From Mesotaenium endlicherianum (lineage: Eukaryota): a stretch of DNA of 60,730 nt. The stretch is from contig WELA01003501.1 in assembly GCA_009602735.1 (NCBI GenBank), positions 3,787 through 64,516 on the forward strand. Reading direction: 5' to 3'. The position numbers and the translations under genes are program-made. Position 1 is the first letter of the stretch. Every line of letters begins with the position of its first letter. Shown piece after piece: positions 24,279 to 60,730 of the stretch. Below the pieces are notes generated by a model that worked only from the letters and a program-made list of their open reading frames with translations, did not search any database and was not told where the DNA came from.

Positions 24279-24380
24279 TAAAGTCCAGCAGACTGACTAT
24301 TAAATAAAGTCCAGCAGACTGACTATTAACTAAAGTCCAGCAGACTGGTTATTAACTAAAGTTCAGCAGGCTGATCTTAA
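24279..24380. repeat. 26-bp tandem repeat x4 in the D1 LTR (U3 side)
   Basis: Units of TAAAGTCCAGCAGACTGACTATTAAC; only about 2 units at the same place in LTR 49788-50507. Confidence 0.85.
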
Positions 24381-24547
24381 TTAACTAATTATATTTAAAT
24401 GAATATCATATCCACTAATATACTGATTCAATACAATCCCTCCAACTTAACTTGTTGTCGCCTCAACAACATTATACTGCAAAGTCTGAAATAAAAGAAC
24501 TGACCCTGACCAGCCTCCCTTACTGACTGCCTCTTCAGCGTGTCACC

Positions 24548-25615: not shown

Positions 25616-25616
25616 N

Positions 25617-25811
25617 CCTTGCTTATGTATGAGTTTACTGATTGGCATCATTGATGCTAGTTTACTCGCATTTGACTTACGAGTATTATTCCCTGCTAGT
25701 GTATTGTCCTTTGCCGTTTAACTAGTTAACGGAAATACCATAAAGATTACTTGCTGATATAAAGATCTTTATTAATTGTTAATCGCCTATTTGGTAAGTC
25801 GATTCATTTCA
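25617..25811 (+). repeat. Terminal 195 bp of a family D LTR (plus orientation) right of the gap
   Basis: Reverse complement of 23664-23857 with a few differences; ends GATTCATTTCA and interrupts ORF3 of D2. Confidence 0.85.
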
Positions 25812-27350
25812 ACCAGGGAGCAGGATGACTTAGTGGACAAGACTCCTACCCTCTCAGAGGAGGAAGATGAGGAGGATGAGGAAGAAGAACAAGGCAGAGG
25901 AGAAGCTCCAGGAGCTGGTACTCAGGAGACCCAGGGGCAGGCAAAAGCAGGGCTTCCTAAGGAGCCAAAATCAGGTGTATGGATGTGACCCCGATCATGG
26001 AGGCAACAGGACCCAGCACTCGCTCCCCCAGCCCACCTGCCCAAGCGGGGGAAGAAGCTGATTTGACTGTACTTGGTAGCAGACAAAGGCATAAAATCCC
26101 AGAGGACAGGGGTGCCAGAAGAGGGACAGGCGGGGTGGCCAGAGGTATGCCGGCCTCTCCCTTCGCTCAGGGACATGTACCTCTTGCCAATGTATTTCAG
26201 CATCCTACTGGAATGCCTGTCTATGTGGGGATCAACACCCAGGTGGTTGAAGAGCAGGCTACAATCCTTTGTTCTCCTCGAGGTCCGACTTTAGAACAAA
26301 CAGGGTTCTTTAGAAGGCCAGCTGACAAACCTAGAGGGCTGTCCGGATCTAGGTCCAGATCTCAATCTCCTGATCCTGAAGCCCAAGGAACAACCCCTTA
26401 GACATCAAAACATCCTCCAGCCAAGCCTTGCTGGAGGTCTCTCTCTTTGCACCCCACAACGGCAGTGGACTGAGGGTGGAGGTGACAACCACTGTCACTA
26501 GTAATCCCCACGGCTAGGCAACAGTGTTGAAGCAAGAGGCAAGCGGTGGGGGGTTAGTCCTGTTAAGTTCCCTGACCCGATACTTCTGCAGTTTGATGTT
26601 GTCGAGGCGACAACAAGTTAAGTTGGAGGGATTGTAATGAATCAGTATATTGATAGATTTAATATTCATTTAAGTATAATAGTTAACTAAGTTCAGCCTG
26701 CTGAACTTTTATTAATATACAATCTGGTGGACATAATGAAAATATCATTTTAATGACTCAGTCGAAAGCAGCAAACTGAAGTCAACTTAAGTCAGCTTGC
26801 TGACACATTCTTTGACAGCCAGCTGAATTACGTACTCGGTAGCAGCGAACTGCCTAGATATGCATCTAAGTATAGTATGCTAGATGAATGGCTAGATGAC
26901 ATCCTTAGGATGGATGGCGATTTGGGATGATGGGAGATGGCGGTGGATTTGGTTAACCGAGGTCCTACCAACGTGGTTAACTCCCGGGTAGGCGGTGCCA
27001 TCGCACTTGCCGTTGCACAGTAAACTCATTGCATGTACATATGCTAGGTATTGCTCTCGAGTTCGGAATTCAAAACGAGGCCAACTCCCTGGTACAGCTT
27101 ACTAAGAGATATCTGAATCCAAGGCGAGAAGCCATTGATATGCACTGTCTTCTAGCCTTGCTTATGTAAGAGTTTACTGATTGCATGACTGATACTAGTT
27201 TACTTACATTTGACTTGCGGGTATTGTCCACTGCTAGTAAGTTGTCTTTTGCTGTCTAATCAAGTAACAAAAAATACCATAGAGATTACTTGCTGATATA
27301 AAGATCTTCATTAATTGTTAATCGCTTGTTTGGTAAGTCAATTCATTTCA
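25812..27350 (+). mobile_element. Family D copy D2 (ORF3 3' part 25812-26401, PPT, 3' LTR 26633-27350)
   Basis: TREQDDLVD…GHVPLANVFQHPTGMPVYV with one frameshift; hairpin TGTTGTCG-AGG-CGACAACA plus PPT; LTR TGTAATGAATC…ATTCATTTCA. Confidence 0.9.
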
Positions 27351-34480: not shown

Positions 34481-34511
<31 letters not shown>

Positions 34512-35253: not shown

Positions 35254-35286
<33 letters not shown>

Positions 35287-36821: not shown

Positions 36822-36852
<31 letters not shown>

Positions 36853-39953: not shown

Positions 39954-41086
39954 GTGTCTCTAGGTCGAATTTGTGACCGGCTGAATGCGGCAGAAATTGT
40001 TGCTGCAAGAGCGAGAGGGACTGTTGAGGACACTACTCAGCGGGTGGATGCCACTGCTGCTGTTGCATTTGCTAGACTCCCACCTCAGAGTGTAGATCTG
40101 GGAGCATTATTTGTGCAAATGCAATTGCGAATGGCGAGCATGTATCAGTCCCAACAGGAGGACAAAAGAATCATTATGTCTTTGCCGCGGGACAGAGACC
40201 AACTAGGTTTTCAAACCATTGGTGGTGGTGGCAGAGGGCCAAGTAAGCCTAAGCCACAACTCCCCAGGACTATGATCCTGAGGGAAACAAAAGGTATTAC
40301 CTGATCAAGTTCCTCGCTGATGTCGAGCAGTGGCTGGAGAACTACCCAGAGCTGCAGGATTACAAGAAGGTTAGGCACACTGGTGCTCTACTGAAAGGTA
40401 GTGTAGCGGACTGGTGGCTTTATTGGAAGGGAGAGCGTAAGGCTCAGCAACTCGGTGACCCTACTTGGGTAGAGTTTGTCGAGAAACTGCATGAGAAATT
40501 TGATGTCATCAATCAGCAGGAGAAAGCTATCTATGCAATGATCTCCTTGACACTGAAGCAGACCACTTTAGTTGCTGAGTATGCTCAGAAGTTCCAGGAG
40601 AACATGATGAAGCCGCCAGACTTGCCAGAGCGTTATAGGATAGGATACTTTAGGTATGGCTTGAAATCCGAAGTCTTTGGTCATTTTGCGGAAAAGAAGT
40701 ATGAAAAATTGGCTGACTTGATCCAAGACGCTGATGCCTGGGATCAGCAGCAGTTCAATCACAAGCGCCAGAGTAATACTTTGGTGTCTAAGATTGTCAA
40801 AAAGCCTTACAGTTCCTACAATGCAATTGAAAGAGACCAGGCTGAGGATGATGAGGGTGGTGAGTACGAGTATGAGTATAATGCTATACAGTCTAGAGGG
40901 AGAGGTGGTTACTCTTGAGGTGGCTATGGAAGAGGTGGTGGTAGGACTAAGCCGAGACCAGCCTCAGCAAAGTCTGTTTGCTTCCATTGCCAGCAATTGG
41001 GCCACTTCAGAGAGCAGTGTCTAGTCAAGCACCTTCCAAAGGTCAAGAGAAAGAACCAACCTTTAAAAGACAGCAACAATCAATAA
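39954..41086 (+). pseudogene. gag: D3 gag (frameshifted/stopped) with CCHC knuckle
   Basis: LLKGSVADWW, LKQTTLVAEYAQKF, FRYGLK, and CFHCQQLGHFREQC at ~40979-41020. Confidence 0.82.
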
Positions 41087-44000
41087 TCCAGTCTACTGGC
41101 TGTGAGAATGCTAGAGATAGTAAGTCGTCACTAGCTGCTCTCGTAGCAGGTATTATGGGTCCTACTAAACTGGATTCACTATGCATGCCTGACAACCAGA
41201 TAGAGGAGACCATCAGCAATATAGACCTCCAGAGAGTGCACACTATGGATGATCTTGTTCCACCTGATGTCCGACATATCTTTGATAAGTCAGGAGAACA
41301 ATGCGAAAGTCAAGAAAAGACAGTCCCCCCTATCCTACTGCATTGCATGATAGCAGGTGGGAAGGTGAGGGCATTTGTTGACGGAGGGGCGTCTCATACT
41401 TTTATCCAAAAGGACTTATTTAAGCGGCTAAGGGTGCCTAATGTCATCTAAGGGAATAGAAAAATATTCCTTGGAGATGCCTCAAGTATCCCGGGAGGAA
41501 TTATAACCAAGTCTATTGAGGTCCAATTAGGTTCTAGCATTGCAGTTCTAAGTGGAACGCTTACATTTGAGGTACTCAACACTGGCTTTTATGATCTCGT
41601 GCTAGGCAGGTCCTGGCTTAACAGACATCAAGCTGAAGTGTGTTGGAGCAGAGGTACAGTTAAAATGAGAGGAGCCAGTGATGGGCACACTAACTTGGCA
41701 CCCACCAGTGCTCTTCCTCTTTTCCTGTATGGATGGCAAATGAAGGAAAAGAAGAGGCTTCCAAAAGGATGCAAATTGCTGAATGCAAAGGAGTTCATCG
41801 AAAGCTGGAACCAGAAGGAAGACAGAAAGTTTTGTCTGCTGCTAAGAGAGGTACCTCCTTGACTCAAAGAAGTGGTGGAGAAAAAGATAAGTTCTCCGGA
41901 GCACCCTACTGCTGCAAAAATTGTTGCTCAGTATACTGATGTTTTTAATATGCCTCCAGGACTACCCCCTAAGAGGGAATTAGATCACAAGATTGATTAA
42001 TTACCTGGGAGTCAGCCACCCTGGCAACGCACTTATGGCTTGTCTTACGTGGAGAGCGAAGAGTTGAAAACACAGATTGCAGAGCTTGAGGAAAATAGTT
42101 ATATATCCCCCAGTAAATCACCTTATGGCGCACCCATCCTATTTGTTAAGAAAAAGGATGGAAGTATGCGGATTTGCGTTGATTACAGAGCTCTTAACAC
42201 AATTACAGTAAAGAACAAGTATGCTTTACCCAAAATCTAGGACTTGCTTGATACCCTGTTTGGTGCCAAAGTATCTAGTAAGATAGATCTCAAGAGTAAT
42301 TATCATCACATCAGAATTGTTGAGGGAGATGAACACAAGACTGCCTTCCGCACACGTTATGGACACTATGACTTAACGTGATGCCATTCGGACTGACTAA
42401 TGCTCCTGCAACCTTCATGGGTGCTATGAATGACATTTTCAGACCTTACCTGGACAAGTTTGTGCAAGTCTTCCTGGATGATATTTTAATTTTCTCTAAA
42501 GATGAAGCTCAGCATGTTGAACACTTAAAGACAATCATAAACACTCCGAGAAGAAATCAGTTATATGCTAAAATGAACAAGTGTGATTTCTTTAAAGATA
42601 GTATTGAATTCTTAGGCCACGTTGTCAGCAAAGAAGGCATCTGTGTGGATCCTAAGAAAGTCCAGACCATAAAGGACTGGCCAGTACCACAGTCTGTCTT
42701 TGAAGTTAGATCCTTCTTTGGGTTGGCTAACCACTACAGGAGCTATGTTGAGAATTGTTCTACAAAGGCCAGTAAATTGACTGACCTTACTAAGAAAGAC
42801 ATAGGGTATGTGTGGGGGGAAGAGCAGCAGGCTGCCTTCCAGACCCTTAAAAATGCTCTTTGTTCTGCCCCAGTCCTAGCCGTGTATGACCCCAGCAAGC
42901 CTGTGTAGGTGATTACTGATGCTTCTGACTTTGCCATGGGTGCTATTTTGTTGCAGCCTACTGACAAATCCACAAAGGATGGTAAGGTACTGCAGGAGTG
43001 GCACCCTGTGCTGTATGAGTCTATGAAATTCAACCCAGCTGAGATTAATTATTCTCTGCATGATGAAGAGCTGCTTGCTATCATTCATGTGCTCACACAG
43101 TGGGGAGCATACTTACATGGTAAAGCTTTTAAGGTGATCACAGATCATCTAGCTCTGACTCACTTTCAGAAGAAGTCCAAGCTGTCGAGGAGGGAGAACC
43201 GCTGGAGCCAGATGCTGCAGTTCCAAGTCCAGATTGACTACAAACCAGGGAATTTGAATCCTGCTGATGCACTCTCTAGAAAACCTGACTTGCAAGAAAG
43301 GAACTTCAGTCAGCATGCTGTAGTTAAGTTCTTTGTGCACTCACTTCACTCAAGGTCAAAAAGTCCTTCCTTGAACAACTTAGAAAGGCCTACCTTTCTG
43401 ACCCAACATTTGAGCACAGTTCCACGAATGGTGTGTGTCCTGCTACTGCACTCGGGTATAGGCTTAAGGGAGGGGTTCGGGTGACTGAAACCGCTTCAGG
43501 CAGAATGAAGCTGGTCATTCCTAATAACTTGGAATTAAAGTCACTCTTATTGAGTCAGGCACATGACAGTTTATTGGGTGGGCATTTGGGGCAGGCCAAA
43601 ACTGTTGGCAAACTGGCAAAACATTATCATTGGGATGGGTTGCCTCGGGAGGTCTTGAAACATGTTAAGTCTTGTGATCAGTGCCAGAGAAATAAGCCTA
43701 GGCACACACCACCCGGGGGTCTTTTATAACCACTGCCCATATCAGCGAGACGCTGGGAAACAATATCTATGGACTGGGTGGTAACTCTACCAAGAACTGC
43801 CAATGGGCATGATTCGATACCGGTAGTCGTGGATAAATTGACAAAAATGGTCAATTTCATCCCCACAACTGTCAAAGTAACTGCACTCAAAATTGTGAGA
43901 CAATTCTACAACCATGTAGTATGCCAATATGGGCTACCCTCTAATATCATCTCAGACAAAGACTCAAAATTTACCTCTAAGTTTTGGAGAGCTTTAATGG

Positions 44001-44870
44001 GGCTAATGGGAGTCAAACAGCTGCTCAGCACAGCAAACCACCCTCAGACTGATGGGCAGACTAAAAGAACTAACCGAGTTCTGCAGGAGGTGCTGAGAGC
44101 ATATATTAACCAACAACAAGATAATTGGAATGACCTGTTGCCTCAAATTCAATTTGCGGTCAACAGTGCGGTGCACGCGTCAACGGGAAAGACCCCTTTT
44201 GTACAGAGTCTGGGTAGAGTCCCTAAGTCTCCTTTAGATGTGCTAGGGGAGTCTTTAACTCACTCTGAGGGGATTGACAATTCCGTGTCTCTCCAGTTAA
44301 CTCAGGTTTTTGCCAATACCTTGTCAGAAGTCCAGTGAAACCTACACACAGTCCAAGAAAATCAACAAAAATACGCAAATCAACACTGTCGAGAGCTGAC
44401 ATTTTCTAAGGGCGATTTGGTCAAACTGCATTCTCAACACCTGTACCTGCCTGGTGTGGTCAAGAAAGAGCTTGGTCCGATCTGGGTCGGTCCATACTCG
44501 GTGGTGCGCCGTGTCGGTCAGAATGCTTACAAACTGAACATGTCAGCGGAATACAAGGGTCACCCAGTCTTTAATGTCTCGTTCCTGGAACCGTACATCA
44601 AAGGTGACACACTGTTCATAGGTCGGTAACCTGTCCAACCGGGACCGGTGCCCGCTGTCAGAGATGGTGACCCTGAGGAATATGAGGTCGAGGACATTTC
44701 AGACGCTCGCTTTGTCCGTCGATCATCTAAATATGTCATGAAATATCTGGTCCGATGGAAGGGTTACGATGCCTCTGGGAATACTTGGGAGTTTAAGGAC
44801 CATTTGACCAATGCCAAAGGGGCGTTGGAACGGTTCCACCTTCGGGTGGTTGATTCACCTCCCGAACTGT
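41062..44870 (+). pseudogene. pol: D3 pol (PR, RT, RH, INT, chromodomain), many stops and frameshifts
   Basis: ORF fragments from 40978..41451 to 44648..44971 give the Gypsy domain order; chromodomain EYEVEDI…YLVRWKGY…NTWE. Confidence 0.93.
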
Positions 44871-45253
44871 CATTTCAGTTGACATGGGAAGGTGACAGGA
44901 GATCCTGTCTCCATTTAAGTTGGAGGGAAAAATACATGGCAATTAGTGTGCGACAAAGGGACAATTTCTGAATCCTAAATGTCAGCATAGTGACAGATGG
45001 GACAGCCTGGCCCACATCAAGCAACGTTGGCGGAATGAAAAAGGGACTCGCACAGCAATACATCACCTAACTCACCCTACACACATTCATGCGTTTATTT
45101 TTAATCGCACCGCAGCTACGTAAACTCCTAGCAATCACCCTGAAAGGTAAACGGGAACAATCTACCATAGTAATACAAACTTGCTTCCCTTCCTGCAACT
45201 CCTGTGACAAAGATGGAGATCCTACTAATTGGTGCCCTGGTTACATGTACAGG

Positions 45254-46920
45254 ATGGCTCCCACCACACAAAAGGAAGACTGAAAGCGCAAGGCAAAAGA
45301 AGCCAGGAGGACTATGGAGCAATACCAGAAAGAGCTGGCGGCGACGTCCCTCACCAGGAGAGAACAAGAAAGGGTCCGCAGACAACAAGAGGCGGCAGAA
45401 GAAGCACAGAGGAAGAAGGAGCAGGAAGCGGAAAACCTCAGCAAAGCTGAGGAGGAGAGACAGAAGAAACAACAAGAAGAAGCGGCGGCGGCAAAGGAGG
45501 AGAGAAGAAAAAAGGCTGAAGCTGATAGGCATAAGAGCTTGGCCACTTACAGATATACTGTGGTGGGTGGCCAAACCTTTGATAACCTGAAGGAAGCAAA
45601 ACTAGCAGCCCAGGAAATCAACAAGCTGGAACAGACAACACTTCTACAGAGGGAAGAAGCTGAAGCACTGGATAGGTACATTAAGACACACACTGGTGTG
45701 GTCCTTTACAAAGCTTATGCCAAGATGGTGGGCTATACAGCAGAGCAGGTCCGGTACCTTGCAGCTGAATCGGAGAACAAGCCAATTCCGCTATGGGGAA
45801 TAGTAGGAGATAAGAGACTCATCAGGATGGTGAGCATGCGGCCCAATAGCTTTAAGGATACGGTAATACACCTCACACTACTGCAAACTTACAATGAAGT
45901 TAAGAGGAGGAGCCAAGAGTACTTGGCCAAAGAAGAAGAACTCCAAATGTTCTCTCCCCACTGGTTCCCTTGTAAGCTGAAAAAGGCTGAGCATGGACCA
46001 CAGTACTACCAGCAACCCCCAGGCTGGAGGTGGATGACCATCACCAACAAAAAGCAGGAGTGTGACCGAGCCTAACCAAACGACTTCCACTATGGACTAG
46101 ACGGCTACCTCATCCTACTACCTCACATTGCCCCGTGGGACCCCAGGCTGAATGGCTGCCTGAGTGATATAAATGCTGAGACCAAAGAGCACAGGAGGAG
46201 GGGGAGAGACTACTTCTCTAAGGGGAAGCATGCCTTTGTCAAATGGGCGAAGAATGCAGGCCGGATAGATATCAGCAGGCTGAAGGCCAAGCATCCTCCA
46301 GCTCGTCCTAAGAAAGGGAGGTCAGTAGATTTCTCCATGTCTACCAGGAAGCAGGATGACTCGGTGGACGAGACTCCTACCCTCTCAGAGGAGGAAGATG
46401 AGGAGGATGAGGAAGAAGAGAAGCATCAGGATCTGGTACTCAGGAGACCCAGGGGCAGGCAAGAGCAGGGTTTCCTAAGGAGCCAAGATCAGGTGTATGG
46501 AATGTGACCCCGATCATGGAGGCAACAGTTCCCGCACTTGCTTCCCCAGCCCACCTGCCCAAGCAGGGGCAGAAGTTGATCTGACTGTATTTGGCAGCAG
46601 ACAAAGGCAAAATCCCCGAGAGGACAAGGGTGCCAGAAGAGGGACACGCGGGGTGGCCAGAGGTATGCCGGCCTCCCCCTTTGCTCACGAACATGTACTT
46701 CTTGCCAATGTATTTCAGCATCCTATTAGAATGCCTGCCTATGTGGGGATCAACACCCAGGTGGTTGAAGAGCAGGCTACAATCCTTTGTTCTCCTCAAG
46801 GTCCGACTTTAGAACAAACAGGGTTCTTTAAAAGGCCAGCTGACAGACCTACAGGGCTGTCCAAATCTAGGTCCAGATCTCAGTCTCCTGATCCTGAAGT
46901 CCCAGGGACCAACCCCCTAG
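45254..46920 (+). pseudogene. Family D ORF3, type 1, full-length but disrupted copy (~555 codons)
   Basis: ATG at 45254 (MAPTTQKED*KRKAKE…); ORF 45314..46075 is a charged coiled-coil followed by the conserved core; it continues past a stop at 46073 as HYGLDGYLIL.PHIAPWDPRL…; ORF 46497..47036 carries the C-terminus. Confidence 0.82.
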
Positions 46921-47661
46921 ACATCAAAACATCCTCCAGTCAAGCCTTGCTGGAGGTCTCTCTGTTTGCACCCCACAACGGCAGTGGACTGAGGGTAGAG
47001 GTGACACCTCCCATCACTAGTAATCCCCACGGCTAGGCAACAGTGTTGAAGCAAGAGGCAGGCGGTGGGGGGTTAGTCCTGTTAAGTTCCCTGACCCAAT
47101 ACTTCTGCAGTTTAATGTTGTCAAGTCGACAACAAGTTAAGTTGGAGGGATTGTAATGAATCAGTATATTGATAGGTATAATATTCATTTGAATATAATA
47201 GTTAACTAAGTTCAGCCTGCTGAACTTTTATTAATATACAATCTGCTGGACATAATGAAAATATCAGTTTAATGACTCAGTCGGAAGCAGCAGGCTGAAG
47301 TCAACTTAAGTCAGCTTGCTGACACATTCTTTGACAGCCAGCTGACTTCCGTATTCGGTAGCAGCGAACAGCCTAGATATGCATTTAAGTGTGATATGCT
47401 AGATGAATGGCCAGATGACATCCTTAGGATGGATGGCGATTCGGGATGATGGGAGATGGCGGTGGATTTGGTTAACCGAGGTCCTACCAACGTGGTTAAC
47501 TCCCGGGTAGGCGGTGCCATCGCACTTGCCGTTGAACAGTAAACTCATTCCATGTACATATGCTAGGTATTGCTCTCGAGTTCGGCATTTGGAAACGAGG
47601 CCAACTCTCTGGTACAGCTTACTAAGAGGTATTTGAATCCAAAGCGAGAAGCCATTGATAT

Positions 47662-48405
47662 TAAAAGGGGCAGAGTGCCCTAGTGGAAGCGTAGTGACTC
47701 ACGAGGAAAAGAACTAGTCGCAATCATACTAAAGAGTGCAGCAGCATATCACTAAGGAAGCTTGGGAAAATTACTTGACATTTTGACTGGCAAGAGATTG
47801 CTCACAAATAAACTAGGGTGAAAGGCCTTGTCATTACAAACCCGTAGAAATTTACAGATGTGAGAACTGATAAGAAACAAAGAAGTTATACCTATTTATA
47901 ACTTTCTGCCTAAGTGCTCCTCTCTAGGAGGAAGCTACGGAATTTCTTAAGTGTGCGTCAAATCGTCCCTTCCAGAACATTCGTGAGAAGGCCAGATCAA
48001 TCTCATCTGACGTGTTGGGTCGAATTGACGTCCACATACATGCATCGACATTACTAGAATATTCTATCTTAGAAGCGCTAGGCTAAATCGAAACTTCTAG
48101 GTCAATCGACCTAGTCGGCACTCCGCGTCAGCCGAACTTACGTGAAGGTTCGAGTTCATTCTAACGGGCCAGATCGCTCGACGCTGTCGGTCAATCCGAC
48201 GGTCGCGCTCACCGCAATTTAAGGACAGTCGTCAACCAACCTCAAAACTAATTAAACTTCGAAAATCCATAACTCTCTCAATACTTGACCAAATTCGATG
48301 AACTTTTTATCAAAATTACCACAAAAATGGACTCTATACGAATATACAATCAAAACATACTTTCATGAAACTCAAAAATGCACTTTATAAACCTATGACC
48401 TTACA
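47662..48405 (-). mobile_element. Family B solo LTR inserted in the D3 LTR
   Basis: Single B LTR flanked by perfect TSD GATAT (47657-47661 / 48406-48410). Confidence 0.95.
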
Positions 48406-48618
48406 GATATGCACTGTCTTCTAGCCTTGCTTATGTATGAGTTTACTGATTGCATTACTCATGCTAGTTTACTTACATTGACTTGCGGGTATTGTCCACT
48501 GCTAGTAAGTTGTCTTTTGTTGTTTTATCAAGTAACAAAAAATACCATAGAGATTACTTGCTGATATAAAGATCTTCATTAATTGTTAATCGCTTATTTG
48601 GTAAGTCGATTCATTTCA

Positions 48619-49633
48619 GCTGTCCAGATCCAGGTCCAAATCTCAATCCCCTGATTTTGGGGCTCCAAACACATCCACGTAGATCTTAAAACCATCCTCC
48701 AGTCAAGCCTTGCTGGGGGTCTCTCTGTTTGCACTCTACAACGGAAGTTGATTGTGGGTGGAGGTGATAATTCATCATCACTAGTGATCCCCACAGCTAG
48801 GCAACAGTGATGAAGCAAGAGGCAGGCGATGGGAAGATCAGTATTGTAAACCTTCTTAACACATAGCTTTACAGTTTAGTGTTGTCGAGGCGACAACAAT
48901 TTAAGTTGGAGGGATTGTAATGAATCAGTATATTAGTAAATATGATATTCAATTAAATATAATAGCTGATCAAGTTCAACCCGCTGAACTTTAGTTGATA
49001 TTCGATATGCTGGACTTGTAAGGATAATCAGTATAATGACTCAGCCGAGAGCAGCAGGCTGAAGTCAATTTAGGTGAGCTCGCTGACACATTCTTTGACA
49101 GCTAGCTGACTTCTTACTCGGTAGCAGCGAACTACCTAGTCATGCAATTAAGTGTGATATGCTAGATGAATGGCCAAATGACAACTTTAGGATAGATGGT
49201 GATTTGGGATGATCGGAGATGGCTGTGAATTTGGTTAACCAAGTTCCTACCAACGTGGTTAACTCCCGGGTAGGCGGTGCCATCGCACTTGCCGTTGAAC
49301 AGTAAACTCATTCCGTATACATAGGCTAGATATTGCTTCAAGTTCGGCATTCGAAAACAAGGCCAACGCTCTTGTATAGCTCACTAAGAGGTATTTGAAT
49401 ACAAGGCGAGAAGCCATTGTTGCTAACTATTTTCTGACTTTGCTTATGTATAAGTTTACCGATTGCATGATTGATGCTTGTTTACTTGCGTTTGATTGGT
49501 GAATTATTGTTCACTGCTAGTGTATTGTCTTTTGCTGTTAAATCAATTAACGAAAGGTACCATAAAGACTGCTTGCTGATATGAAGATCTTTTATTAATT
49601 GACAATCGCCTATTGGTAAGTTGATTCATTTCA
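48619..49633 (+). mobile_element. D' subfamily 3' end, second copy (LTR 48916-49633)
   Basis: Same junctions and sequence as 27351-28366. Confidence 0.87.
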
Positions 49634-49787: not shown

Positions 49788-50585
49788 TGAAATGAATCGA
49801 CTTACCAAATAGGCGATTAACAATTAATAAAGATCTTTATATCAGCGAGTAATCTTTATGGTAATTTTCGTTAACTGGTTAAACGGCAAAGGACAACCCA
49901 CTAGCAGTGAATAGTACTCGTAAGTCAAATGCGAGTAAACTAGCATCAATAATGCAATCAGTAAACTCATACATAAGCAAGGTTAGAAGATAGTGCGTAT
50001 CAATGGCTTCTCGCCTTGGATTCAGATCTCTCTCAGTAAGCTGTACAAGAGAGTTGGCCTCGTTTCCGAATGCCGAACTCGAGAGCAATGTCTAGCGTAT
50101 GTACATGGAATGAGTTTACTGTTCAACGGTCAGTGCGATGGCACCGCCTACCCGGGAGTTAACCACGTTGGTAGGACCTCGGTTAACCAAATCCACCGCC
50201 ATCTCCCATCATCCCGAATAGCCATCCATCATAGGGATGTCATCTGGCCATTCATCTAGCATACCACACTTAGATGCATATCAAGGCAGTTCGCTGCTAC
50301 CGAGTACGGAAGTCAGCTGGCTGTCAAAGAATGTGTCAGCAAGCTGACTTAAGGTGACCTCAGCCTGCCACTTCCGGCCCAGTCATTAAACTGATATTAA
50401 GTATAAAGTCCAGCAAACTGATTGTTAACTAAAATTCAGCAGGTTGAACTTATTTAACTATATTATTTAAATGAATATTATATCTACCAGTATACTGATT
50501 CATTACAATCCCTCCAACTTATCATGTTGTCGCCTCGACAACACTATAACAGCGTGCCGTCCCTCTTATCCCCAGCCTGCTGCCC

Positions 50586-53500
50586 TTAGGAGGGAGATGT
50601 CCCTGAGGCCCTATGCTCAGTGGAGCCAGACCTCCTCCTGTCTTGGGGTCTTTTGAAGCCTGTCAGAGAAGGGGGTTCCGTGTAAGGACCCGGCAAAGAA
50701 CGCAGTAACTGGGCTGTTTCCTCCTGCACAGTCTGAAATTGAAGGGAGGCAGCCTTCTCCTGTGCAGCCCTCAAACTGACAGGTACGTATACCGGCATCC
50801 CGGAAGGATGTTGCATGACATGAGCCAAGGGTACATGCCCTCTCTGCGAGGGAGATGCTGGCAGGCCTCTGGCTATCTCCCGAGCAGCCCTCCTGTCTGC
50901 CCTGTCTGACTGGGTCTCCTTGCCTGGAGATGGGCTCTGTCCTCTGGCAGTCCCCAGCCAAGTGATATCCTCCTCTTGAGCGAGTTGCGGCGGGGCCCAC
51001 CCCGTCTTCTCCCTTACAGGGGATGTGGCAGGTGTCAGGATCACGGCGGGGCTAGTGTCCTCCTCCTCGCCTTCCTCCTCGTCTTCCTCCGACTCCTCCT
51101 CCTCGCCGTCCCCGGGTTCCTCTGAGACTTCTGGGGTCTCCTCTGTCCGCTGCTCCAGCTCTTCCCGAGAAAAAGAATATCCTACTGACCTTCCCCTTTT
51201 GGGTGCTGGTGGGGGCTGCTGAGTCCGGACCGCATAGAGGTCCTTTTCCCCCTGCTTACTTGCCCATTTGGCATAAGCGTGCTTCCCTTTGGAGAATGAC
51301 TCTCGGGCCCTGCTTCTGTCCCCCTGCATCTCTTGGCTCATGCAGTCTCTGACTCCATCCAATCTTGGGTCCCAAGCCGCAATGTGAGGGGGCAATACTA
51401 TGTTCCCCTTTAGGTCTGTCAGGAAATCCTCATCCGTCGCCCTGTCATTCTGCTGGTCCCTCATGTTGATGGTCATCCACCGCCAATCAGTGGGCTTTTG
51501 GAAGAAGGCAGCGTCTGTCTTTTTGAGAGTACAAGGGTACCAGTGCCCTGCAAAGTCCAGCTAACTGGTTTCTCTGGCCAAGAATTCCCAGCTCCTCCTC
51601 TCCACCTCATTGTACATGGCCTTTTACCTATTGTGGGGTGTTGAGTCCTTGAAGCTGTCCGCGTCCATGGGGATCATCCTGATGACCCTATGAAATGAAT
51701 CTTGCTTATTCAAGATTAATATATTTCATTTAAATATAAAAGATCAGAGATAGGTGGAAGCGTGTGAAATCAGGGAGCGATCTTCGCCCTTATAATGAAT
51801 TCTGTTTACTCATCTATAGCCCTTGACTCACTTATCGTAGTGTGCCATAATTGCACACGAATACAAGGCACAAGAAAGAGGCGAGCTTGAGGACTAGAGC
51901 TTCTCCTTTAGAAACTCCTAACCTCTTGCCTACCAGGCATACAAGCATGTGTAAGCACATTCACAACATCAGGGGACTGAATAGCAAAGGTGCTCTCATT
52001 CAGATGACCATAAAGTAGCTCAAACTCATCCCACTGACTTAGGTGCAAAAACCATGGAATCTGTCCGCTGTGTGACCCCAAAATTTTTAGAGAGCATAAC
52101 TCTGTTAATACTACTCCAACTTGAGCAAACTTAACGGCAACGGATGCATCTTGACGAGACCTTTCCGAAAAGTCCTAGTTCGCTCCAAATGAAGCGCAAA
52201 CGAATTAGCCATGGCAATTTCCGTGAAGGCTGGTCATTAGAACGAACCCAAAAAGTGCACACATCACTTGCAAGTAGAAACCCGATTGTAAAGCCTGCTG
52301 TCCAGAACGAGGGACCACGAGATCCCAGCCTGCTATGTACCTAGTGACCACCTGGTTGACCACGGCGCAAGGTGCGCCGTTTCGTGGGAAACCCGTTAAG
52401 TTGGGACCCACGGATCTAGGTATAACGACCATATTAATTGGTCGGTTGACTGAAGTCCTAACTGTTCAGTTGACTGACGACGGCTCCGCCTACCCAGGAG
52501 TTAACCACACTGGTAGGACATCGGTTTACCGAATCTCAGTCGACCTCCCGACTTTCAGTATACTTCGGTCACATGTGCCAATCCACAAACAACAATCTAA
52601 ATGAATATGTCTATCCTCTGCGTACTGAAGCTAAGTATATTGACTAATATCAAGCGAGCTTACTATATGTCAACCTACTGATATTTTATCCTATATATAA
52701 CTGATATATAAATCTCAGCAAATCACACTATGATATAAAAGTCATCCTGCTGACCTTTTCAACATAGTCAGCAGACTACACTTTGGTACCAAAGTCATCC
52801 TGCTGACCTTTTTGACAAAGTAAGTAAACTCGCATTACATCGACATACATTCATTTAGATGAACTCGCACATGTGAGTATATAGACATAATACTTATATA
52901 GTGTTATATTTATATATGCAATTAATTAAATAAATAATGAACTGATTCATTACAATCTCCCCAACTTAAATTGTTGTCGCCTCGACAACACTCAGCATAT
53001 GATACTTTTATTTAATAATACACTTCAGTCAACTAGGTGAAGCAAAGCAAGCAAACAAAACATGAGCGTGACATATTCACCTACCCAGTGCAAGTAAAAA
53101 TCAATCACAACAAATTGTCATGCAAGCAACCATCTGACTTCACAGTCATTAACTGAAGACATGCATGGACTTACCCCTACTCACAATAGTCCTTCCGGTT
53201 GAAAGACATAATAGAGCACCTCACACCATGCAAACCACACCCAAATCAAACAGCCTCCTTTCGAGGTCAAATAATGAAAGAATGTTATTAAAGCTCAGCG
53301 TACTGAACTAAGCCTTTTCTCCTTCTCTTGGTCTTCAACTGCTGCTGTGCTCCCACCTTGAAAGCTCCTCACAAGCAATTTCTTGTGACTTAGGTACCTG
53401 CTCAAAATTCAGCGTACTGAAGGAAAAGAGAGACCAACTGGTTTGATGGCATTGAATGCCCTCACAAGAAGAGTAACATCAGGTTAATGAGCCGATGAAA

Positions 53501-56500
53501 ATTTTACATTTTAACCACATTTTCAGAACACTCTAAGTTCAAAGAAACATATGGTTTTGAGCAATATGCTGGTCACCTCAAGCAGTTCCCTGATGTGTCA
53601 TGCATCATTGCTACCCAATCCAACTTATGGCAATGTACTTACTCAATTAGTACGTACACTTGCTCCAACAGTGTACCGCAACTCACAGTTTACACCAGTC
53701 AGTCACTGATGCTCCTGATATTAATGCAGTACATACATAGGACGTGGCAGTGTATGACTCAGTTAGTACATACACTTGCTGCTGAGTATGCAGGTAAGCA
53801 CAGCTTACTGAATACTCCTAATACACATCCCATCTCCCTCTCTCCAACTTAAATAGCTGTCGACTGGACAACTTTAACCACATAAGCACACCAAAAAGTG
53901 CAAACACCCAAGTAAGCAAAAAAAGAAAGAAAGTGCCCCCCTCCCAAAAAAAAAAAAATAGTCCATTTTTCAAAATTAGATCAATGACCGGAGTGGCTTA
54001 GGGAAGAGTGTACTGCCATTCAAACCCTCTCACCACAAAGCTCTATCCATGAATAACCTAAACTCAAGCCAGCGTATTACATCCCTCCATTCGAAAGTGT
54101 AGATAGCTTGCTATGAGATGAAGACAACCGGCCCTGTTAGCAAGTTTATCCATACCAAAAAGTAGCGCAGTTAGCTGACTCTACCAATGCTTACATACAA
54201 TGACTCATACTGGTCATTCCTAGCAAGACATACACCAAAATGACAACCACCCAATGGTGAGAGTCAACAATCAAACAGAAGAGGGACCAGAAACAACCAA
54301 CTATCATAGTTCTGATGTTTCAAGATACTCCCTCCTTCAGACCGTACTGCCTGAAGTTGCCCAGAGGACAGGTGGGGAAGCGTCACGTGGCAGCGTCCAG
54401 CATGCCAACTCCTCGGCCTCTCTCGACCTGTATGCACCATCGCTTCACACTCTGCTTGCTGGTCTCAGTCTGTTGAACAGACAACAAACAAGTGTGTAAG
54501 TTGCCTTCAATGAGCTTAAGCTACGCGTGGCAAACACCACACCCTAGCTGCATCAGTCTACTCAAGGTCTGATGACTCCATCTTACATAGTTCCCGGGAG
54601 GGTAAGGCAAACATTGGGATCACAAAGACAACCAATGACAATGGACAAACGCAGTATAGCTCAAAACCCAGTTCCTCTCTAAAGGCACATACATGGCACC
54701 TATTGTAATTGCAGCAAGCACCTAGCCAATGACAACAGCGTGCATAGATCCCTGGTAAGACTTTCGCACTGTAACCCCAAGCTAGCAAGAAGAATGTTTG
54801 TGCATCGGATTGAACAAGATCATTCAAGCCATGCATTGCGAGAACGTCTATAATGTCGATGGTCTCTTCTGTCTTTACTTAGGTGTGCATAGTGAATCTA
54901 TTACAGCAGGGCCCATTTTACACCTGCTCTACGGTATGCTAATGGCGATCCACTACCTCTAGCACCCGGGATGCAAATTCCATGCACCTGACGCATATAC
55001 AAATGCATCTTGCATGCTACCTAGCATGCGCCTCTAGCGAGCTCAGTTAGCTTCGAGGCCGGCAGAAACTTAGCACACTGCTAATATGCCCAGATCGTCC
55101 CCATGACGAAGACACAAACCTCCTTACACTTGACCGAGTGTACAGGTGGCATCCAAAAACAAATAGCCAACTGGACCTAAGGCAAGTAGTCAAACCCCCT
55201 CTAGTATCCACGTTGACTTTCCATACGTCAGTCAACACACCGTACAGACCTAAGTCTCGATATGCTCATCTTATCTGATTATCTCGCTAGCTATGACGAG
55301 CCACAATCCCACAGTAAGACATGTCACGCACCAAGCATGGCAACACCAAGAGCTCGTTCAGCTCAAGCACTCAAAGTACTCATTGATCGCGGCTGCTCTC
55401 GGACACTTAACCTTTAATAAGTCATGCGAACTAAAGAGAGTTAAAGGAAAGTCCTTGCGTTCATAAACCCAAGCCCTTAAACCCTTTAACCACATTAGGT
55501 CAAATAATCCAGCAGACTGACTTAACCTAAGTCAGCAATCACATAAGATCCGCATCCAAAAACCTCTGCACACTGACTAGACTTATCTTAAGCTTAAACC
55601 CCAAGCTCCTACGATCCATCAAGTATCACCAAAGCACCGTCTCACACATAGCATTCAAGCACAAGGCACGTACCCTAAACCTTCCAGCCCACGTCAATGT
55701 GGCAAACGAGAGGAGCACACAATGTTACAGCCATGGTTGGGAATAAAGGGTATCTGTAGGATGCCATTGTTGCTGTGGAAGCCTCTTCTCATAGAAGTTG
55801 CAGCATGCTGAAGCTTGTGGACGACGTAGTGCACTTGGACCGTGGTGGCGAAAACCTGTCGTAATCCATACTTGGAAACTTAAGTTAGTAAATCATGTGT
55901 GCACGCACTGTCTCAATTGCTCAACACATGCAGCCATACCCAAGCTCCCTCAACCGAACTGCCACACAACTAATGAGAGAGGTACGTCTCTTGCAAAGCA
56001 ACAAGCTTAAACTTAAAGGGATAGCACAACAGACCAACAAGTCCTCTAGCACCGTTGGAGTGCACACCCCTCTCTATACTAGCCGTGGATTGCATATAAC
56101 AACACACAATGACTATGATCAAGTGAGGTAAATGAGTCATATCCAGCTTGCTATGATGCAACTCCCTTGAGGCTGCCCTTGATGCTTGCAGACACCTCTT
56201 CCATCAAGCCTCCACTTCAGGCTTCTCGTTGCGTGTAACTGTACACAAGAGGCTAGGAAAGTCAAGTTAGTATGCCGCATAGTACACTGAGCCAAGAGAC
56301 ACACTAGGTGAGCAAGTGGAAGGATCCTGGACAGGATGTGCAATGCTCTACATCATACACTTCCCAAGCTCCACCTAGACTCATCATACCACACAAGTAA
56401 GCCTCACACACTTACCTCATGAGACAAAGAAGACAAGCACGGACATTCAAGAAAGGACTTAGCTCCGATACCACTGAAATGAATCTTGCTTATTCAAGAT

Positions 56501-58158
56501 TAATATATTTCATTTAAATATAAAAGATCAGAGATAGATGGAAGCGTGTGAAATCAGCGAGCGATCTTTGCCCTTATAATGAATTCCGTTTACTCATCTA
56601 TAGCCCTTGACTCACTTATCGTAGTGTGCCATGATTGCACACGAATACAAGGCACAAGAAAGAGGCGAGCTTGAGGACTAGAGCTTCTCCTTTAGAAACT
56701 CCTGACCTCTTGCCTACCAGGCATACAAGCATGTGTAAGCACATTCACAACATCAGGGGACTGAATAGCAAAGGCGCTCTCATTCAGATGACCATAAAGT
56801 AGCTAAAGTCCTAGTTCGCTCCAAATGAAGCGCAAACGAATCAGCCATGGCAATTTCCGTGAAGGCTGGTCATTAGAACGAACCCAAAAAGTGCACACAT
56901 CACTTGCAAGTAGAAATCCGATTGTAAAGCCTGCTGTCCAGAATGAGGGACCACGACATCCCAGCCTGCTATGTACCTAGTGACCACTTGGTTGACCACG
57001 GCGCAAGGTGCGCCGTTTCGTGGGAAACCCGTTAAGTTGGGACCCACGGATCTAGGTATAACGACCATATTAATTGGTCGGTTGACAGAAGTCCTAACTG
57101 TTCAGTTGACTGACGACGGCTCCGCCTACCCAGGAGTTAACCACACTGGTAGGACATCGGTTTACCGAATCTCAGTTGACCTCCCGACTTTCAGTATACT
57201 TCGGTCACATGTGCCAATCCACAAACAACAATCTAAATGAATATGTCTATCCTCTGCGTACTGAAGCTAAGTATATTGACTAATATCAAGGGAGCTTACT
57301 ATATGTCAACCTACTGATATTTTATCCTATATATAACTGATATATAAATCTCAGCAAACTACACTATGATATAAAAGTCATTTTGCTGACCTTTTCAACA
57401 AAGTCAGCAGACTACACTATGGTACAAAAGTCATCCTGCTGACCTTTTTGACAAAGTAAGTAAACTCGCATTACATCGACATACATTCATTTAGATGAAC
57501 TCGCACATGTGAGTATATAGACATAATACTTATATAGTGTTATATTTATATATGCAATTAATTAAATAAATAATGAACTGATTCATTACACCCTATCTGC
57601 CCCCCAGATACCAGGAATCGAGACAGCTCCTGCTTCGTTCACTTGGACCATTGCCTTGGCCTCTCCGATGGTATATCCTACCATCCTGGCGTAATCGTGG
57701 TAGAGGAGAAGCCCTGTGCTGACCTCTATATACTTGTCAAAGTTTTCGGATGTCTCCTCTTCCTTCTGGAGGATTTCCTTATGCGACTCACTGCGATTTC
57801 TCTGGGCATACTTAAAGGCCTCCTCCAGTAGATCAAAGCCCTTGCCCAGCACCGTGTAGCGGTAGCTGCTGATTCTTCTCTGTTCTTCTTCTTCAGCCTG
57901 CTGCTTCCGCTTCTCCTCAGCTTGCCTCTCCTCCTCTGCTTTCTTTGCCTACTCTGCCGCTTTTCTGTCCATTTCTTCCTGCCTCAGTCTGGCCTGTTCC
58001 TCCTCCTCCTTCTTCTTCTGTGCCTCCCGCTGTTGTTGGAGTCGTTGTGATTCCCGAGCGGTGATGGAAGATGATTCGATGTCTCCACGGAATTGCAAGT
58101 ATTCTGCATGTGCCTCTTCCGCCCTTCTCTTCCTCTTGAGTTCCGACTTTTGAGTCAT
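50586..58158 (-). pseudogene. Family D ORF3, type 2 (58158-57596 joined to 51690-50586 = 556 codons), split by element E, three in-frame stops
   Basis: Removing E and one TSD restores the frame (…IWGADR-VIRMIPMDADSFKD…YNEVERRSWEFLARE…HWYPCTL…WRWMT…PPHIAAWDPRL…FSKGKHAYAKWA…GHVPLAHVMQHPSGMPVYV). Confidence 0.85.
51691..57590 (-). mobile_element. Family E non-autonomous LTR element (LARD-like), complete, 5.9 kb
   Basis: LTRs 51691-52954 and 56475-57590 near-identical except a 148-bp indel; perfect TSD CCCTA (51686-51690 / 57591-57595); PBS 56458-56473; PPT 52955-52970; 3.5-kb interior with no recognisable gag/pol. Confidence 0.93.
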
Positions 58159-58482
58159 CCTGCTCAATCATAAACACAATGCAGTTAGTGAAGTCATGAT
58201 ATTTTGCCGCTACTGAGTGCCCTTGATGAAGAGGGACGCGATCGGGAGAGTTCCTAGAGTGGAATACCTGGTGTGAGCGAATATAAGGAAAAATTGTGTT
58301 GGAGAGCAAGTGAGTGTGAGCGCAGGTTGAGTGGGTAATATGGTGATCAGAGACTACCACTCCCTCCAACTTAAATTCAAAGGTGGGCTGCCTGTCACAA
58401 CTGTCACTAACTGTCACATCTCCCTCCAACTCATATAGAAATAGGACCTCCTGTCACCTTCGCGTGTCAACGGAAATGACTG

Positions 58483-60730
58483 TTAGGAAGGTGCCCCAGC
58501 CGCCCGAAGGTGGAACCGTTTCAACGCCCCTTTGGCATGCGTCAGCTGATCTTTAAATTCCCAAGTGTCCCCAGAGGCATCGTAACCCTTCCATCGGATG
58601 AGGTACTTCATTACATATTTAGACGATCGACGGACCGAGCGAGCGTCTAAAATCTCATCGACCTCATATTCCTCAGGGTCGCCGTCACGGACAGCGGGGA
58701 CCGGTCCCGGTTGGACAGGTAACCGACCTGTGAACAGTGTATCACCTTTGATGTACGGTTCCAGGTAGGAGACATTAAAGACGGGGTGACCCTTGTAGTC
58801 TGCTGACATGTTTAGTTTGTAAGCATTCTGACCGACACGACGGACCACCGAATATGGACCGACCCAGACAGGGCCAAGCTTTTTCTTGACCACACCAGGG
58901 AGGTACAGGTGCTGAGAATGCAGTTTGACTAAATCCCCCTTGGAAAATGTCAGTTCCCGACGGTGTTGATTAGCGTATTTTTGTTGGTTTTCTTGGGCCG
59001 TGTGCAAGTTTCGTTGGACTTCTGACAGGATGTCAGCAAACTCCTGAGTTAACTGGAGGGAGACCGGGTTGTCAATCCCTTCAGGGTGGGTTAAAGATTC
59101 CCCTAGGACATCAAGAGGAGACTTAGGGACTCTACCCAGGCTGAGTTCAAAAGGAGTTTTGCCCGTTGACGCGTGCACCGCACTGTTGACCGCAAACTGA
59201 ATTTGAGGCAACAGGTCATCCCAATTATCTTGTTTTTGGTTAATATATGCTCTCAGCACCTCCTGCAGAACTCGGTTAGTTCTTTCAGTCTGCCCATCAG
59301 TCTGAGGGTGGTTTGCTGTGCTGAGCAGCTGTTTGACTCCCATTAACCCCATTAAAGCTCTCCAGAACTTAGAGGTGAATTTTGAGTCCCTGTCTGAGAT
59401 GATATTAGAAGGGAGCCCATGTTGGCATACTACATGGTTGTAAAACTGTCTCGCTGTTTCGAGTGCAGTCACTTTGACAGTTGTGGGGATGAAAATGACC
59501 ATTTTTGTCAGTTTATCCACGACTACCAATATTGAATCATGCCCATTGGCAGTTCGTGGTAGTGTGACCACCCAGTCCATACATATAATTTCCCAGCGTC
59601 CAGCTGGGATGGGCAGTGGTTGCAAGAGACCTTCGGGTGGTGTGTGCCAAGACTTATTTCTCTGACACTGGTCACAGGACTTGACATATTTCAAGACCTC
59701 CCGGGGTCACCCCTCCCAATGATAATGTTTTGCCAATTTGCCAACAGTTTTGGCCTGCCCCAAATGTCCATTCAGGAGACTGTCATGCGCTTGACTCAAA
59801 AGGAGAGACCTTATTTCCAAGTTATTAGGAATGACCAGCTTCAGCCTGCCTGAAGTGGTTTCAGTCACCCAGACCCCTCCCTTAAGCTTATACCCGAGTG
59901 CAGTAGCACGACACACACCAGTAGTGGGGCTGGGCTCAAATGTTGGGTCAGAAAGGTAGGCTTTCCTAAGTTGTTCTAGGAAGGACTTTTTCACCTTTAG
60001 TGAAGTGAGTGCACACAGGACTTCATCTACAGCATGCTGACTAAAGTTTCTTTCTTGCAAGTCAGGTCTTCTAGAGAGTGCATCACCAGGATTCAACTTC
60101 CCTGGTTTGTTGTCGATCTCGACTTGGAACTGCTCCAGCATCTGGCTCCAGCGGTTCTCCCTCCTCGACAGCTTGGACTTCTTCTGAAAGTGGGTCAGAG
60201 CTAGATGATCTGTAATCACCTTAAAAGCTTTACCATGTAAGTATGCTCTCCACTGTTTGAGTACATGAATGATAGCTAGCAGCTCTTTATCATGCACTGA
60301 GTAATTAATCTCCGCTGGATTAAATTTCATAGACTCATACAACACAGGATGCCACTCCTGCCGTACCTTACCATCCTTTGTGGTTTTGTCAGCAGGCTGC
60401 AACAAAACAGCACCCATGGCAAAGTCAGAGGCATCAGTAACCACCTGCACCGGTTTGCTGGGGTCATACACGGCTAGCACTGGGGCAGAACAAAGGGCAT
60501 CTTTAAGGGTCTGGAAGGCAGNNNNNNNNNNNNNNNCTGCTCCTCCCCCCACACATACCCGATGTCTTTCTTAGTAAGGTCAGTCAGTTTACTGGCCTTT
60601 GTGGAATAATTNNNNNNNNNNNNNNNNNNNNNNNNNNNNNNGTAGCCAACCCGAGGAAGGATCTAACTTCAGAGACAGATTGTGGTACAGGCCAGTCCCT
60701 TATGGTCTGGACTTTCTTAGGATCCACACT
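58483..60730 (-). pseudogene. pol: D4 pol 3' part (RT end, RNase H, integrase, chromodomain); one frameshift near 59700 and N gaps
   Basis: TDASDFAMGA; HDSLLNGH…CDQC; MDWVV…SDRDSKF…ERTN; GPY; EYEVDEIL…YLIRWKGY…DTWE. Confidence 0.94.

What the first reader, a model, noticed from the sequence alone, without database searches (positions are those of the whole stretch)
44915..47151. ORF3 sits in a cassette bounded by two polypurine tracts and exists as two diverged types on near-identical backbones
Seen: the terminal PPT TTAAGTTGGAGGGA (47137-47150) has an exact internal copy just after pol (44915-44928). D4 has two internal copies (58361-58374, 58421-58433). D3 and D4 are close throughout pol and up to this internal PPT, then diverge sharply across ORF3 (only protein motifs align), and reconverge at the pre-PPT hairpin. 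D1 has an LTR almost identical to D4 but carries the D3-type ORF3. Inference: the internal PPT marks the ancestral end of the element or acts as a central PPT, and the ORF3 module is exchanged between lineages by template switching. Such a pattern would fit a gene in conflict with the host.
Basis: partly seen in the sequence, partly recalled or inferred. Interest (0 to 1): 0.72.

Follow-up and report, generated by a model that had tools for sequence, protein, structure and literature searches.

The report
Retrotransposon swaps its orphan extra gene
A very abundant jumping-gene family (an LTR retrotransposon, likely from a green alga) carries an extra gene of no known family in two very old versions that sit on closely related backbones, likely because copies swap that gene by recombination while being copied; each ingredient has precedents, the combination is unusual.

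Summary
Largely real, partly overstated. D is a high-copy Ty3/Gypsy chromovirus with a ~555-codon sense ORF3 between pol and the 3' LTR, an internal polypurine-tract (PPT) copy after pol and a terminal PPT. D3 and D4 share pol (89.8% nt, dS 0.31) and LTR (89.5%), but their ORF3s are 45% identical with saturated synonymous sites (dS ~2.6, lower bound 1.6); D1-D3 ORF3 dS is only 0.41. So the D4 cassette is far older than its flanks: recombination, not fast protein evolution. dN/dS is ~0.2 everywhere, so host conflict is not shown. Both ORF3 types are deep in independent reads. Corrections: backbones are ~90%, not near-identical; D1's LTR is 92.5% to D4 and only in its 3' part; D2/D3 are one duplicated composite; D4's ORF3 is split by a nested element. 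The internal PPT is kept with a hairpin, lacks LTR remnants and recurs in a non-autonomous partner, so likely functional rather than a relic. Splice-like signals suggest an env-style spliced ORF3 mRNA (not seen in RNA). ORF3 has no homologue, no transmembrane segment. Extra ORFs, extra PPTs and inter-element recombination are each known.

The parts
40253..40918 (+). D3 gag (capsid-like); element is 5'-truncated, no 5' LTR or PBS found upstream
   Evidence: Pfam Ty3_capsid E 3e-9, Retrotrans_gag; no LTR match or PBS motif upstream
41452..44860 (+). D3 pol in broken pieces: RT, RNase H, integrase, SH3, chromodomain (44681-44839)
   Evidence: Pfam RVT_1, RT_RNaseH, Chromo; 88% aa to D4 integrase
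44894..44909 (+). 6-bp hairpin ending 5 nt before the internal PPT, different in sequence from the terminal hairpin
   Evidence: 39 of 6844 positions of D3's internal region have such a hairpin
44915..44928 (+). internal PPT, exact copy of the terminal PPT, not followed by the T-TG LTR start
45022..45035 (+). decayed counterpart (9 of 14) of D4's second internal PPT
   Evidence: alignment
45225..45253 (+). branch-point-like CTAAY and CAG/G acceptor-like site directly before the ORF3 ATG (inferred splice acceptor)
   Evidence: 3 of 2144 ATGs in the window fit, 2 of them are the D3 and D4 ORF3 starts (pattern chosen after seeing them)
45254..46920 (+). D3 ORF3, ~555 codons, broken by stops and frameshifts: charged helical N-terminus, conserved core, basic motif, acidic run, P/S/R-rich tail
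   Evidence: dN/dS 0.13-0.21 against D1
47116..47134 (+). terminal pre-PPT hairpin, right edge of the diverged block
47137..47150 (+). terminal PPT
47152..48618 (+). D3 3' LTR (TG...CA) split by a solo LTR of another family at about 47661-48405; donor-like G/GTAAGT at 48600-48606
48619..49633 (+). Dx3: D3-type cassette tail, PPT (48901-48914) and a more distant LTR; twin Dx2 at 27351-28366
58483..60730 (-). D4 pol (RNase H, integrase, chromodomain), runs off the window
58361..58434 (-). D4's two internal PPTs (58421-58434 with 2 mismatches, 58361-58374 exact)
57591..58158 (-). D4-type ORF3, 5' part
   Evidence: 32% aa to D3; ATG context
51691..57590 (-). N1, non-autonomous relative nested in D4's ORF3: LTRs ~98% alike, iMet-type PBS, terminal PPT 52956-52969, own internal PPT 53839-53852 with hairpin
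49788..51690 (-). D4-type ORF3 3' part (to 50586), terminal PPT 50509-50522, D4 3' LTR
23664..25615 (-). D1: D3-type ORF3 3' part (open 355 codons up to an N at 25616), PPT 24437-24450, LTR
25812..27350 (+). D2: D3-type ORF3 tail, PPT 26618-26631, LTR; duplicate of the D3 composite

Best explanation
Family D is a high-copy chromodomain-bearing Ty3/Gypsy retrotransposon whose extra gene ORF3 exists in two deeply diverged versions on ~90%-identical pol and LTR backbones, likely because reverse transcriptase switches between co-packaged RNAs in the conserved flanks and so swaps the whole diverged block. Shown: anatomy, the age contrast (dS ~2.6 against 0.31), purifying selection on ORF3, abundance of both types. 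Inferred: a D1/D4-like backbone took a cassette from a distant lineage and the hybrid amplified; crossovers fall at the PPT-hairpin motifs because these are the last conserved sequence on each side; the internal PPT is a selected second plus-strand primer (central-PPT-like), not a passive relic; ORF3 is made from a spliced RNA (donor near the LTR end, acceptor just before the ATG) and is a soluble, probably nuclear accessory factor (RNA export or anti-silencing type), not an envelope.
For: D3 v D4: pol dS 0.31 [0.24-0.37], dN/dS 0.18, 651 codons; ORF3 dS 2.6 [1.6-saturated], dN 0.49, dN/dS ~0.19, 310 codons; control D3 v D1 ORF3 dS 0.41 [0.30-0.53] at the same LTR distance. LTR tree of all 6 full LTRs: (D1,D4),(D2,D3),(Dx2,Dx3), bootstrap 100, Dx most distant; yet Dx carries the D3-type tail (79-80% over ~283 nt) while D4 aligns to the other 5 tails only over 19-29 nt at the hairpin. 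DNA contigs of run X1 are deep over both ORF3 types (bins 65k-595k for D3-type, 180k-475k for D4-type, against 55-80 for single listed contigs; summed depth, not copy number); 39 contigs cover D4's first internal tract, one with 79 letters to its end, which as I read that column spans pol stop to second tract, and RNA depth in 3 of 3 RNA runs is continuous across it. At four listed sites in the hairpin arm and tract the runs agree with D3 in 98-99% of contig depth. All 7 terminal PPTs, D3's and N1's internal PPTs have an upstream hairpin. Donor-like motif in 7 of 7 D LTR ends, 0 of 2 N1 LTR ends; acceptor-like motif before both ATGs. No hydrophobic segment (max KD19 0.83 in 6 pieces).
Against: Only three independent ORF3 lineages (D1, D2/D3, D4) plus a tail; no genome held, no related loci found, so no family-wide trees. 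The four-taxon topology alone is not incongruent; the case rests on branch lengths and on Dx. D1's LTR is itself possibly mosaic (36 of 57 informative sites D4-like, max-chi2 permutation p=0.048). D4's own internal tracts have no strong hairpin. RNA is scarce (80, 428 and 193 reads in 1.0-1.4 billion letters), falls rather than rises over ORF3 in 2 of 3 runs, shows no start pile-up and no listed splice joint, and in two runs first mates lie mostly on the strand that in common stranded libraries means antisense. The splice pattern was defined after seeing the two sites. No homologue or usable model gives ORF3's function.
Confidence: 0.65

Rival explanations
1. Same age contrast, but produced at the DNA level (ectopic recombination or gene conversion among nested copies), or by a horizontally acquired donor element, rather than by reverse-transcriptase switching among resident lineages.
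For: The window is a dense nest of D copies inserted into each other; grass CR elements show horizontal transfer followed by recombination, and the authors name illegitimate recombination as an alternative (PMC4079200, passages).
Against: D4-type ORF3 is deep in independent reads, so the hybrid amplified by retrotransposition whatever its origin; two crossovers flanking one block are simplest in one reverse transcription.
Confidence: 0.13
2. The two PPTs define a dedicated mobile cassette: the plus-strand piece primed at the internal PPT is displaced and assimilated on a partner genome, so ORF3 moves as a unit by design.
For: Both edges of high identity fall within ~15-30 nt of a PPT or its hairpin; extra PPTs were proposed to aid recombination in Sireviruses (PMC2829016 section 17).
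Against: Weak homology runs on past the first tract; N1 has an internal PPT without ORF3; no joint from internal PPT to LTR among the 15 of 278 joints shown; assimilation across ~65% identity is implausible.
Confidence: 0.1
3. No exchange: ORF3 simply evolves very fast under host conflict.
For: ORF3 is 45% identical where pol is 89%; plant extra ORFs are generally very divergent (PMC6317226, passages).
Against: Silent sites and non-coding flanks are saturated too, dN/dS ~0.2, and D1-D3 ORF3 is not accelerated.
Confidence: 0.05
4. D4 or D1 is an assembly chimera of a repeat-rich draft.
For: Ns at 25616, 60522-60536 and 60612-60641; an inverted 195-nt LTR piece 98.5% identical to D1's lies next to the gap.
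Against: D4's pol-PPT-ORF3 junction is covered by contigs and by RNA reads of three other studies; D1's ORF3-PPT-LTR has no N. D4's right junction and D1 were not checked in reads.
Confidence: 0.05

Closest known systems
[quoted passage not shown]
   Same: Position and orientation; no homology outside the element; possible spliced message as in Bagy2; several diverged protein groups within a lineage.
   Different: D is a chromovirus, whereas the survey ties extra ORFs mainly to SIRE and OTA elements; no transmembrane segment; no Pfam match; two alignable ancient versions on one backbone.
Bongo3 (Tekay chromovirus of beet) with PPTa after the chromodomain (PMC3605345, passages)
   Same: Chromovirus with a second PPT just downstream of the chromodomain.
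   Different: The passages read describe no ORF between the two PPTs; D's internal PPT lies 55-70 nt past the pol end and is doubled in D4.
Sirevirus multiple PPTs, and the extra PPT of Athila4 and Calypso (PMC2829016, passages and section 17; the Athila4 paper itself was not held)
   Same: Identical PPT copies in the pol-LTR linker, some before the extra ORF (7 of 63 upstream PPTs), lacking the attachment site, conserved amid divergent sequence.
   Different: Sireviruses are Copia; most of their copies cluster after env; their inverted repeat surrounds the PPT, D's hairpin lies wholly upstream.
Central PPTs of Ty1, HIV-1 and EVADE (PMC7197481, passages)
   Same: Internal PPT copy that would prime a second plus strand.
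   Different: Those lie inside coding sequence; priming in D is untested.
Recombinant CR centromeric retrotransposon subfamilies; ONSEN and Ty1 recombination (PMC4079200, PMC6894440, passages)
   Same: Segment exchange between related elements followed by amplification of the hybrid.
   Different: Here the exchanged block is an accessory gene with saturated silent sites, bounded by PPT motifs.

Membership tests
Ty3/Gypsy chromovirus | gag, then RT-RNase H-integrase order | tested here: met
   Pfam hits in order along D3
Ty3/Gypsy chromovirus | chromodomain at the integrase C-terminus | tested here: met
   PF00385 E 1e-10 (D3), 3e-9 (D4)
Ty3/Gypsy chromovirus | TG...CA LTR preceded by a PPT | tested here: met
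Ty3/Gypsy chromovirus | 5' LTR, PBS and TSD of an autonomous copy | tested here: inconclusive
   D3 is 5'-truncated, D4 runs off the window; only N1 shows an iMet-type PBS (label recalled) and a TSD
Named chromovirus clade (Chlamyvir, Tcn1, Tekay and others) | placement on an RT/integrase tree with references | not tested
   No reference set fetched; best integrase hits are only 39-47% identical, the few with a eukaryote name are from Closterium
env-like extra ORF | sense ORF between pol and 3' LTR | tested here: met
env-like extra ORF | transmembrane segment | tested here: not met
   max 19-residue hydropathy 0.83 in 6 of 6 pieces
env-like extra ORF | spliced subgenomic mRNA | tested here: inconclusive
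   donor- and acceptor-like motifs; no junction listed at depth of about 10 or less
Retand/Ogre extra ORF (Transposase_28, PMD) | PF04195 or PF10536 domain, antisense orientation for Retand | tested here: not met
   no such Pfam hit at E<=10; Atlas score 0.85 with 90 of 256 features is a lead only
Sirevirus multi-PPT system | Copia domain order | tested here: not met
   Gypsy order
Sirevirus multi-PPT system | identical upstream PPTs without attachment site | tested here: met
central PPT | primes plus-strand synthesis, leaves a flap | not testable with these tools
   needs extrachromosomal cDNA ends

The most novel reading that the evidence does not exclude
ORF3 is a new family of retrotransposon accessory proteins kept as two ancient, idiomorph-like alleles by balancing selection inside one freely recombining chromovirus population, with PPT-hairpin motifs acting as the crossover points; allele identity would set specificity in a conflict (escape from host silencing, or self/non-self restriction between elements).
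Probability: 0.2. Interest if true: 0.75.

Novelty: new variant of a known kind. Interest (0 to 1): 0.48.

Why it matters
The function of plant retrotransposon extra ORFs and of extra PPTs is an open question in the papers read (PMC7264820, PMC2829016). A family with a very large number of copies, two alignable ORF3 versions on one backbone and a non-autonomous partner that keeps the internal PPT but not ORF3 would let both be tested from one genome: whether diverged extra ORFs arise by exchange rather than fast evolution, and whether an extra PPT is selected. ORF3 also appears to be an orphan protein under purifying selection.

Tried and rejected
Homologue searches, all blank: D3 ORF3 N-part against 5.8 billion proteins, 0 of 4552 candidates; core alignment A2 against longer proteins, 0 of 7994; HMM against 1.84 billion representatives, 1 hit (E 2.9e-4), a tandem-repeat protein judged spurious; Pfam, no hit above cut-off; PDB sequences, best E 0.45; ESM Atlas best 0.85 and 0.82, leads only. 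AlphaFold on 4 rows gave pLDDT 41, so no fold search was run. No related loci: junction pattern 0 in metagenome and viral contigs, proteins 0 of 33 and 0 of 593 stretches. No whole genome. LTR remnant after the internal PPT: none in 8 of 8 D comparisons (p 0.29-0.90), N1 p 0.06-0.57 in 4 of 4. Cassette-less copies: no such joint among 15 of 278 shown; not evidence of absence. No RNA holder listed in the index. A spliced ORF3 RNA as the donor template was rejected because the left edge lies ~330 nt upstream of the acceptor-like site. An initial guess of Chara as host found no support. Two-allele precedent: searches listed no paper describing two diverged extra-ORF alleles on one chromovirus backbone or an algal chromovirus ORF3; the library lacks most subscription papers and no supplements were read (the element tables of PMC6317226 may bear on whether algal chromoviruses carry extra ORFs). 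Earlier scan notes: nothing near or by sequence, one unrelated fungal note by words.

Full report
Setting. The window is a nest of LTR retrotransposons around one GC-rich host gene. No whole genome is held. The D4 integrase has 782 hits at E<=1e-60, the 120 listed at 39-47% identity; the few with a eukaryote name are from Closterium, so a streptophyte green alga is the likely host (inference). D3 runs gag (40253), RT, RNase H, integrase, SH3, chromodomain, internal PPT, ORF3, hairpin, terminal PPT, LTR. It has no 5' LTR or PBS. D4 is on the minus strand, runs off the window, and its ORF3 is split by a 5.9-kb non-autonomous relative N1 with TSD TAGGG. D1 and D2 are 3' fragments; D2 and D3 share their downstream flank (1081 of 1169 nt) and count as one lineage.

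Observation. The PPT copies are where stated and far beyond chance. Identity between D3 and D4 drops right after the first internal PPT and returns at the terminal hairpin. The backbones are about 90% alike, not near-identical. D1 has the D3-type ORF3, but its LTR is 92.5% to D4 against 88.8% to D3, and the part next to ORF3 is equidistant; a change of affinity inside the LTR is borderline (36 of 57 informative sites, p=0.048) and would be expected from an ordinary intermolecular first strand transfer (established retroelement biology; PMC6894440 passages).

Exchange or fast evolution. Pairwise codon counts on in-frame pieces: pol D3/D4 dS 0.31 [0.24-0.37], dN/dS 0.18; ORF3 D3/D4 dS 2.6 [1.6 to saturated], dN 0.49, dN/dS about 0.19; ORF3 D1/D4 core dS 2.55; ORF3 D3/D1 dS 0.41, dN/dS 0.21. 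D1-D3 and D3-D4 are equally far apart in LTR (88.8 and 89.5%), so ORF3 silent sites are not intrinsically fast; the D4 cassette is simply much older than its flanks. In the tree of all 6 full LTRs D4 is sister to D1 and Dx is the most distant, yet Dx carries the D3-type cassette tail (79-80% over about 283 nt) and D4 shares only the hairpin. The simplest reading is that a D1/D4-like backbone acquired a distant cassette. Limits: three ORF3 lineages, saturated estimates, no outgroup; the argument rests on branch lengths. Purifying dN/dS shows ORF3 was a functional gene and gives no sign of an arms race; pairwise values cannot exclude selection at a few sites.

Independent reads. Contigs of DNA run X1 lie deep on both ORF3 types, about a third to a half of the depth on pol and thousands of times that of single listed contigs (summed depth, not copy number; X1 may be the source of the assembly). 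D4's pol-PPT junction is covered by 39 contigs and continuously by reads of 3 of 3 RNA runs from other studies. RNA is scarce (80, 428, 193 reads), shows no start pile-up or listed joint, thins out over ORF3 in two runs, and may be antisense in those two (library orientation not calibrated). Expression of ORF3 is therefore not shown.

The internal PPT. Sister family B in the window has its PPT directly after the chromodomain, so the position is that of a canonical chromovirus 3' end, which keeps the 'ancestral end' idea alive as an origin. But no LTR-like sequence follows the internal tract, D4's second copy is exact inside a block with saturated silent sites, D3's copy has its own 6-bp hairpin (39 of 6844 positions have one) as do all 7 terminal PPTs, the reads agree with D3's hairpin arm and tract at four listed sites, and N1 has an internal PPT with hairpin 870 nt before its terminal one without any ORF3. 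This points to selection on the tract (inference). It lacks the T-TG start, like upstream Sirevirus PPTs (PMC2829016). A second plus-strand origin as in Ty1, HIV-1 and EVADE (PMC7197481) is the likeliest role; untested. Against: D4's own tracts fold poorly, and D3's second tract has decayed.

ORF3. About 555 codons from ATG 45254: charged helical N-terminus, a conserved core with W/H/C motifs, a basic motif, an acidic run and a P/S/R-rich tail; no hydrophobic segment; no homologue in any search; model unusable. Both types keep a branch-like CTAAY and CAG/G directly before the ATG (3 of 2144 ATGs in the window fit, two are these; post hoc), and 7 of 7 D LTR ends carry a donor-like G/GTAAGT that N1's LTR ends lack. 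I infer an env-style spliced message and a soluble, probably nuclear accessory protein, by analogy with maize Grande GENE23 (PMC7264820) and the RNA-export factor CERV of Cer1 (PMC10309623 passages); analogy only.

Mechanism. Most likely, co-packaged RNAs of related D lineages recombine during reverse transcription; switching needs similarity, so it happens in pol and in hairpin-PPT-LTR and not inside a block only ~65% alike, which therefore travels whole and keeps its old divergence while the flanks are homogenised. The PPT motifs mark the edges because they are the conserved cis-elements next to the variable block; a purpose-built cassette is possible but not needed. Why both versions stay abundant is open: neutral persistence or balancing selection.

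Comparison and verdict. Sense extra ORFs (PMC7264820, PMC6317226), a second PPT after the chromodomain (Bongo3, PMC3605345), PPTs on both sides of an extra ORF (some Sireviruses), ORF3 sharing (rotifers, PMC5408684 passages) and amplified recombinants (PMC4079200) are all in print. My searches listed no report of two ancient extra-ORF versions on one chromovirus backbone; PMC3350952 (passages) mentions only a chromodomain-coding ORF3. New variant of a known kind; interest 0.48.

Noticed in passing
window 51691-57590 (-): N1: non-coding LTR element distantly related to D in its LTR (score 177, shuffle max 88), same termini, hairpin and PPT, iMet-type PBS, LTRs ~98% alike, its own internal PPT; a donor-like motif just after its PBS (56416) and an acceptor-like ATG context at 55015.
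   Followed up: partly
window 25617-25812, 27350/27351, 48618/48619, 57590/57591: D-family elements repeatedly sit inside the ORF3 region of other D copies (4 junctions in the window); a listed contig joint shows another LTR start inside ORF3 at 45913. Possible insertion preference.
   Followed up: no
window 25616-25811: A single N next to an inverted 195-nt LTR end 98.5% identical to D1's; may be a scaffolding artefact.
   Followed up: no
window 24270-24360 (-): D1's LTR has a short tandem expansion (about 53 extra columns) in its 5' part.
   Followed up: no
window 44969-45010: Contigs show tandem duplications just after the internal PPT in other copies.
   Followed up: no
window about 34000-38150 (+): GC-rich host gene with microsatellite-rich introns; looks like a cationic amino acid transporter from its translation (recalled resemblance, not scanned).
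   Followed up: no
window 1-22400 and 28367-30377: At least two other chromovirus families; one has its PPT directly after the chromodomain, another has about 1 kb without a long sense frame between chromodomain and LTR.
   Followed up: partly
window 58270-59724: In two RNA runs first mates lie mostly on one strand over the integrase end, possibly antisense transcription.
   Followed up: no
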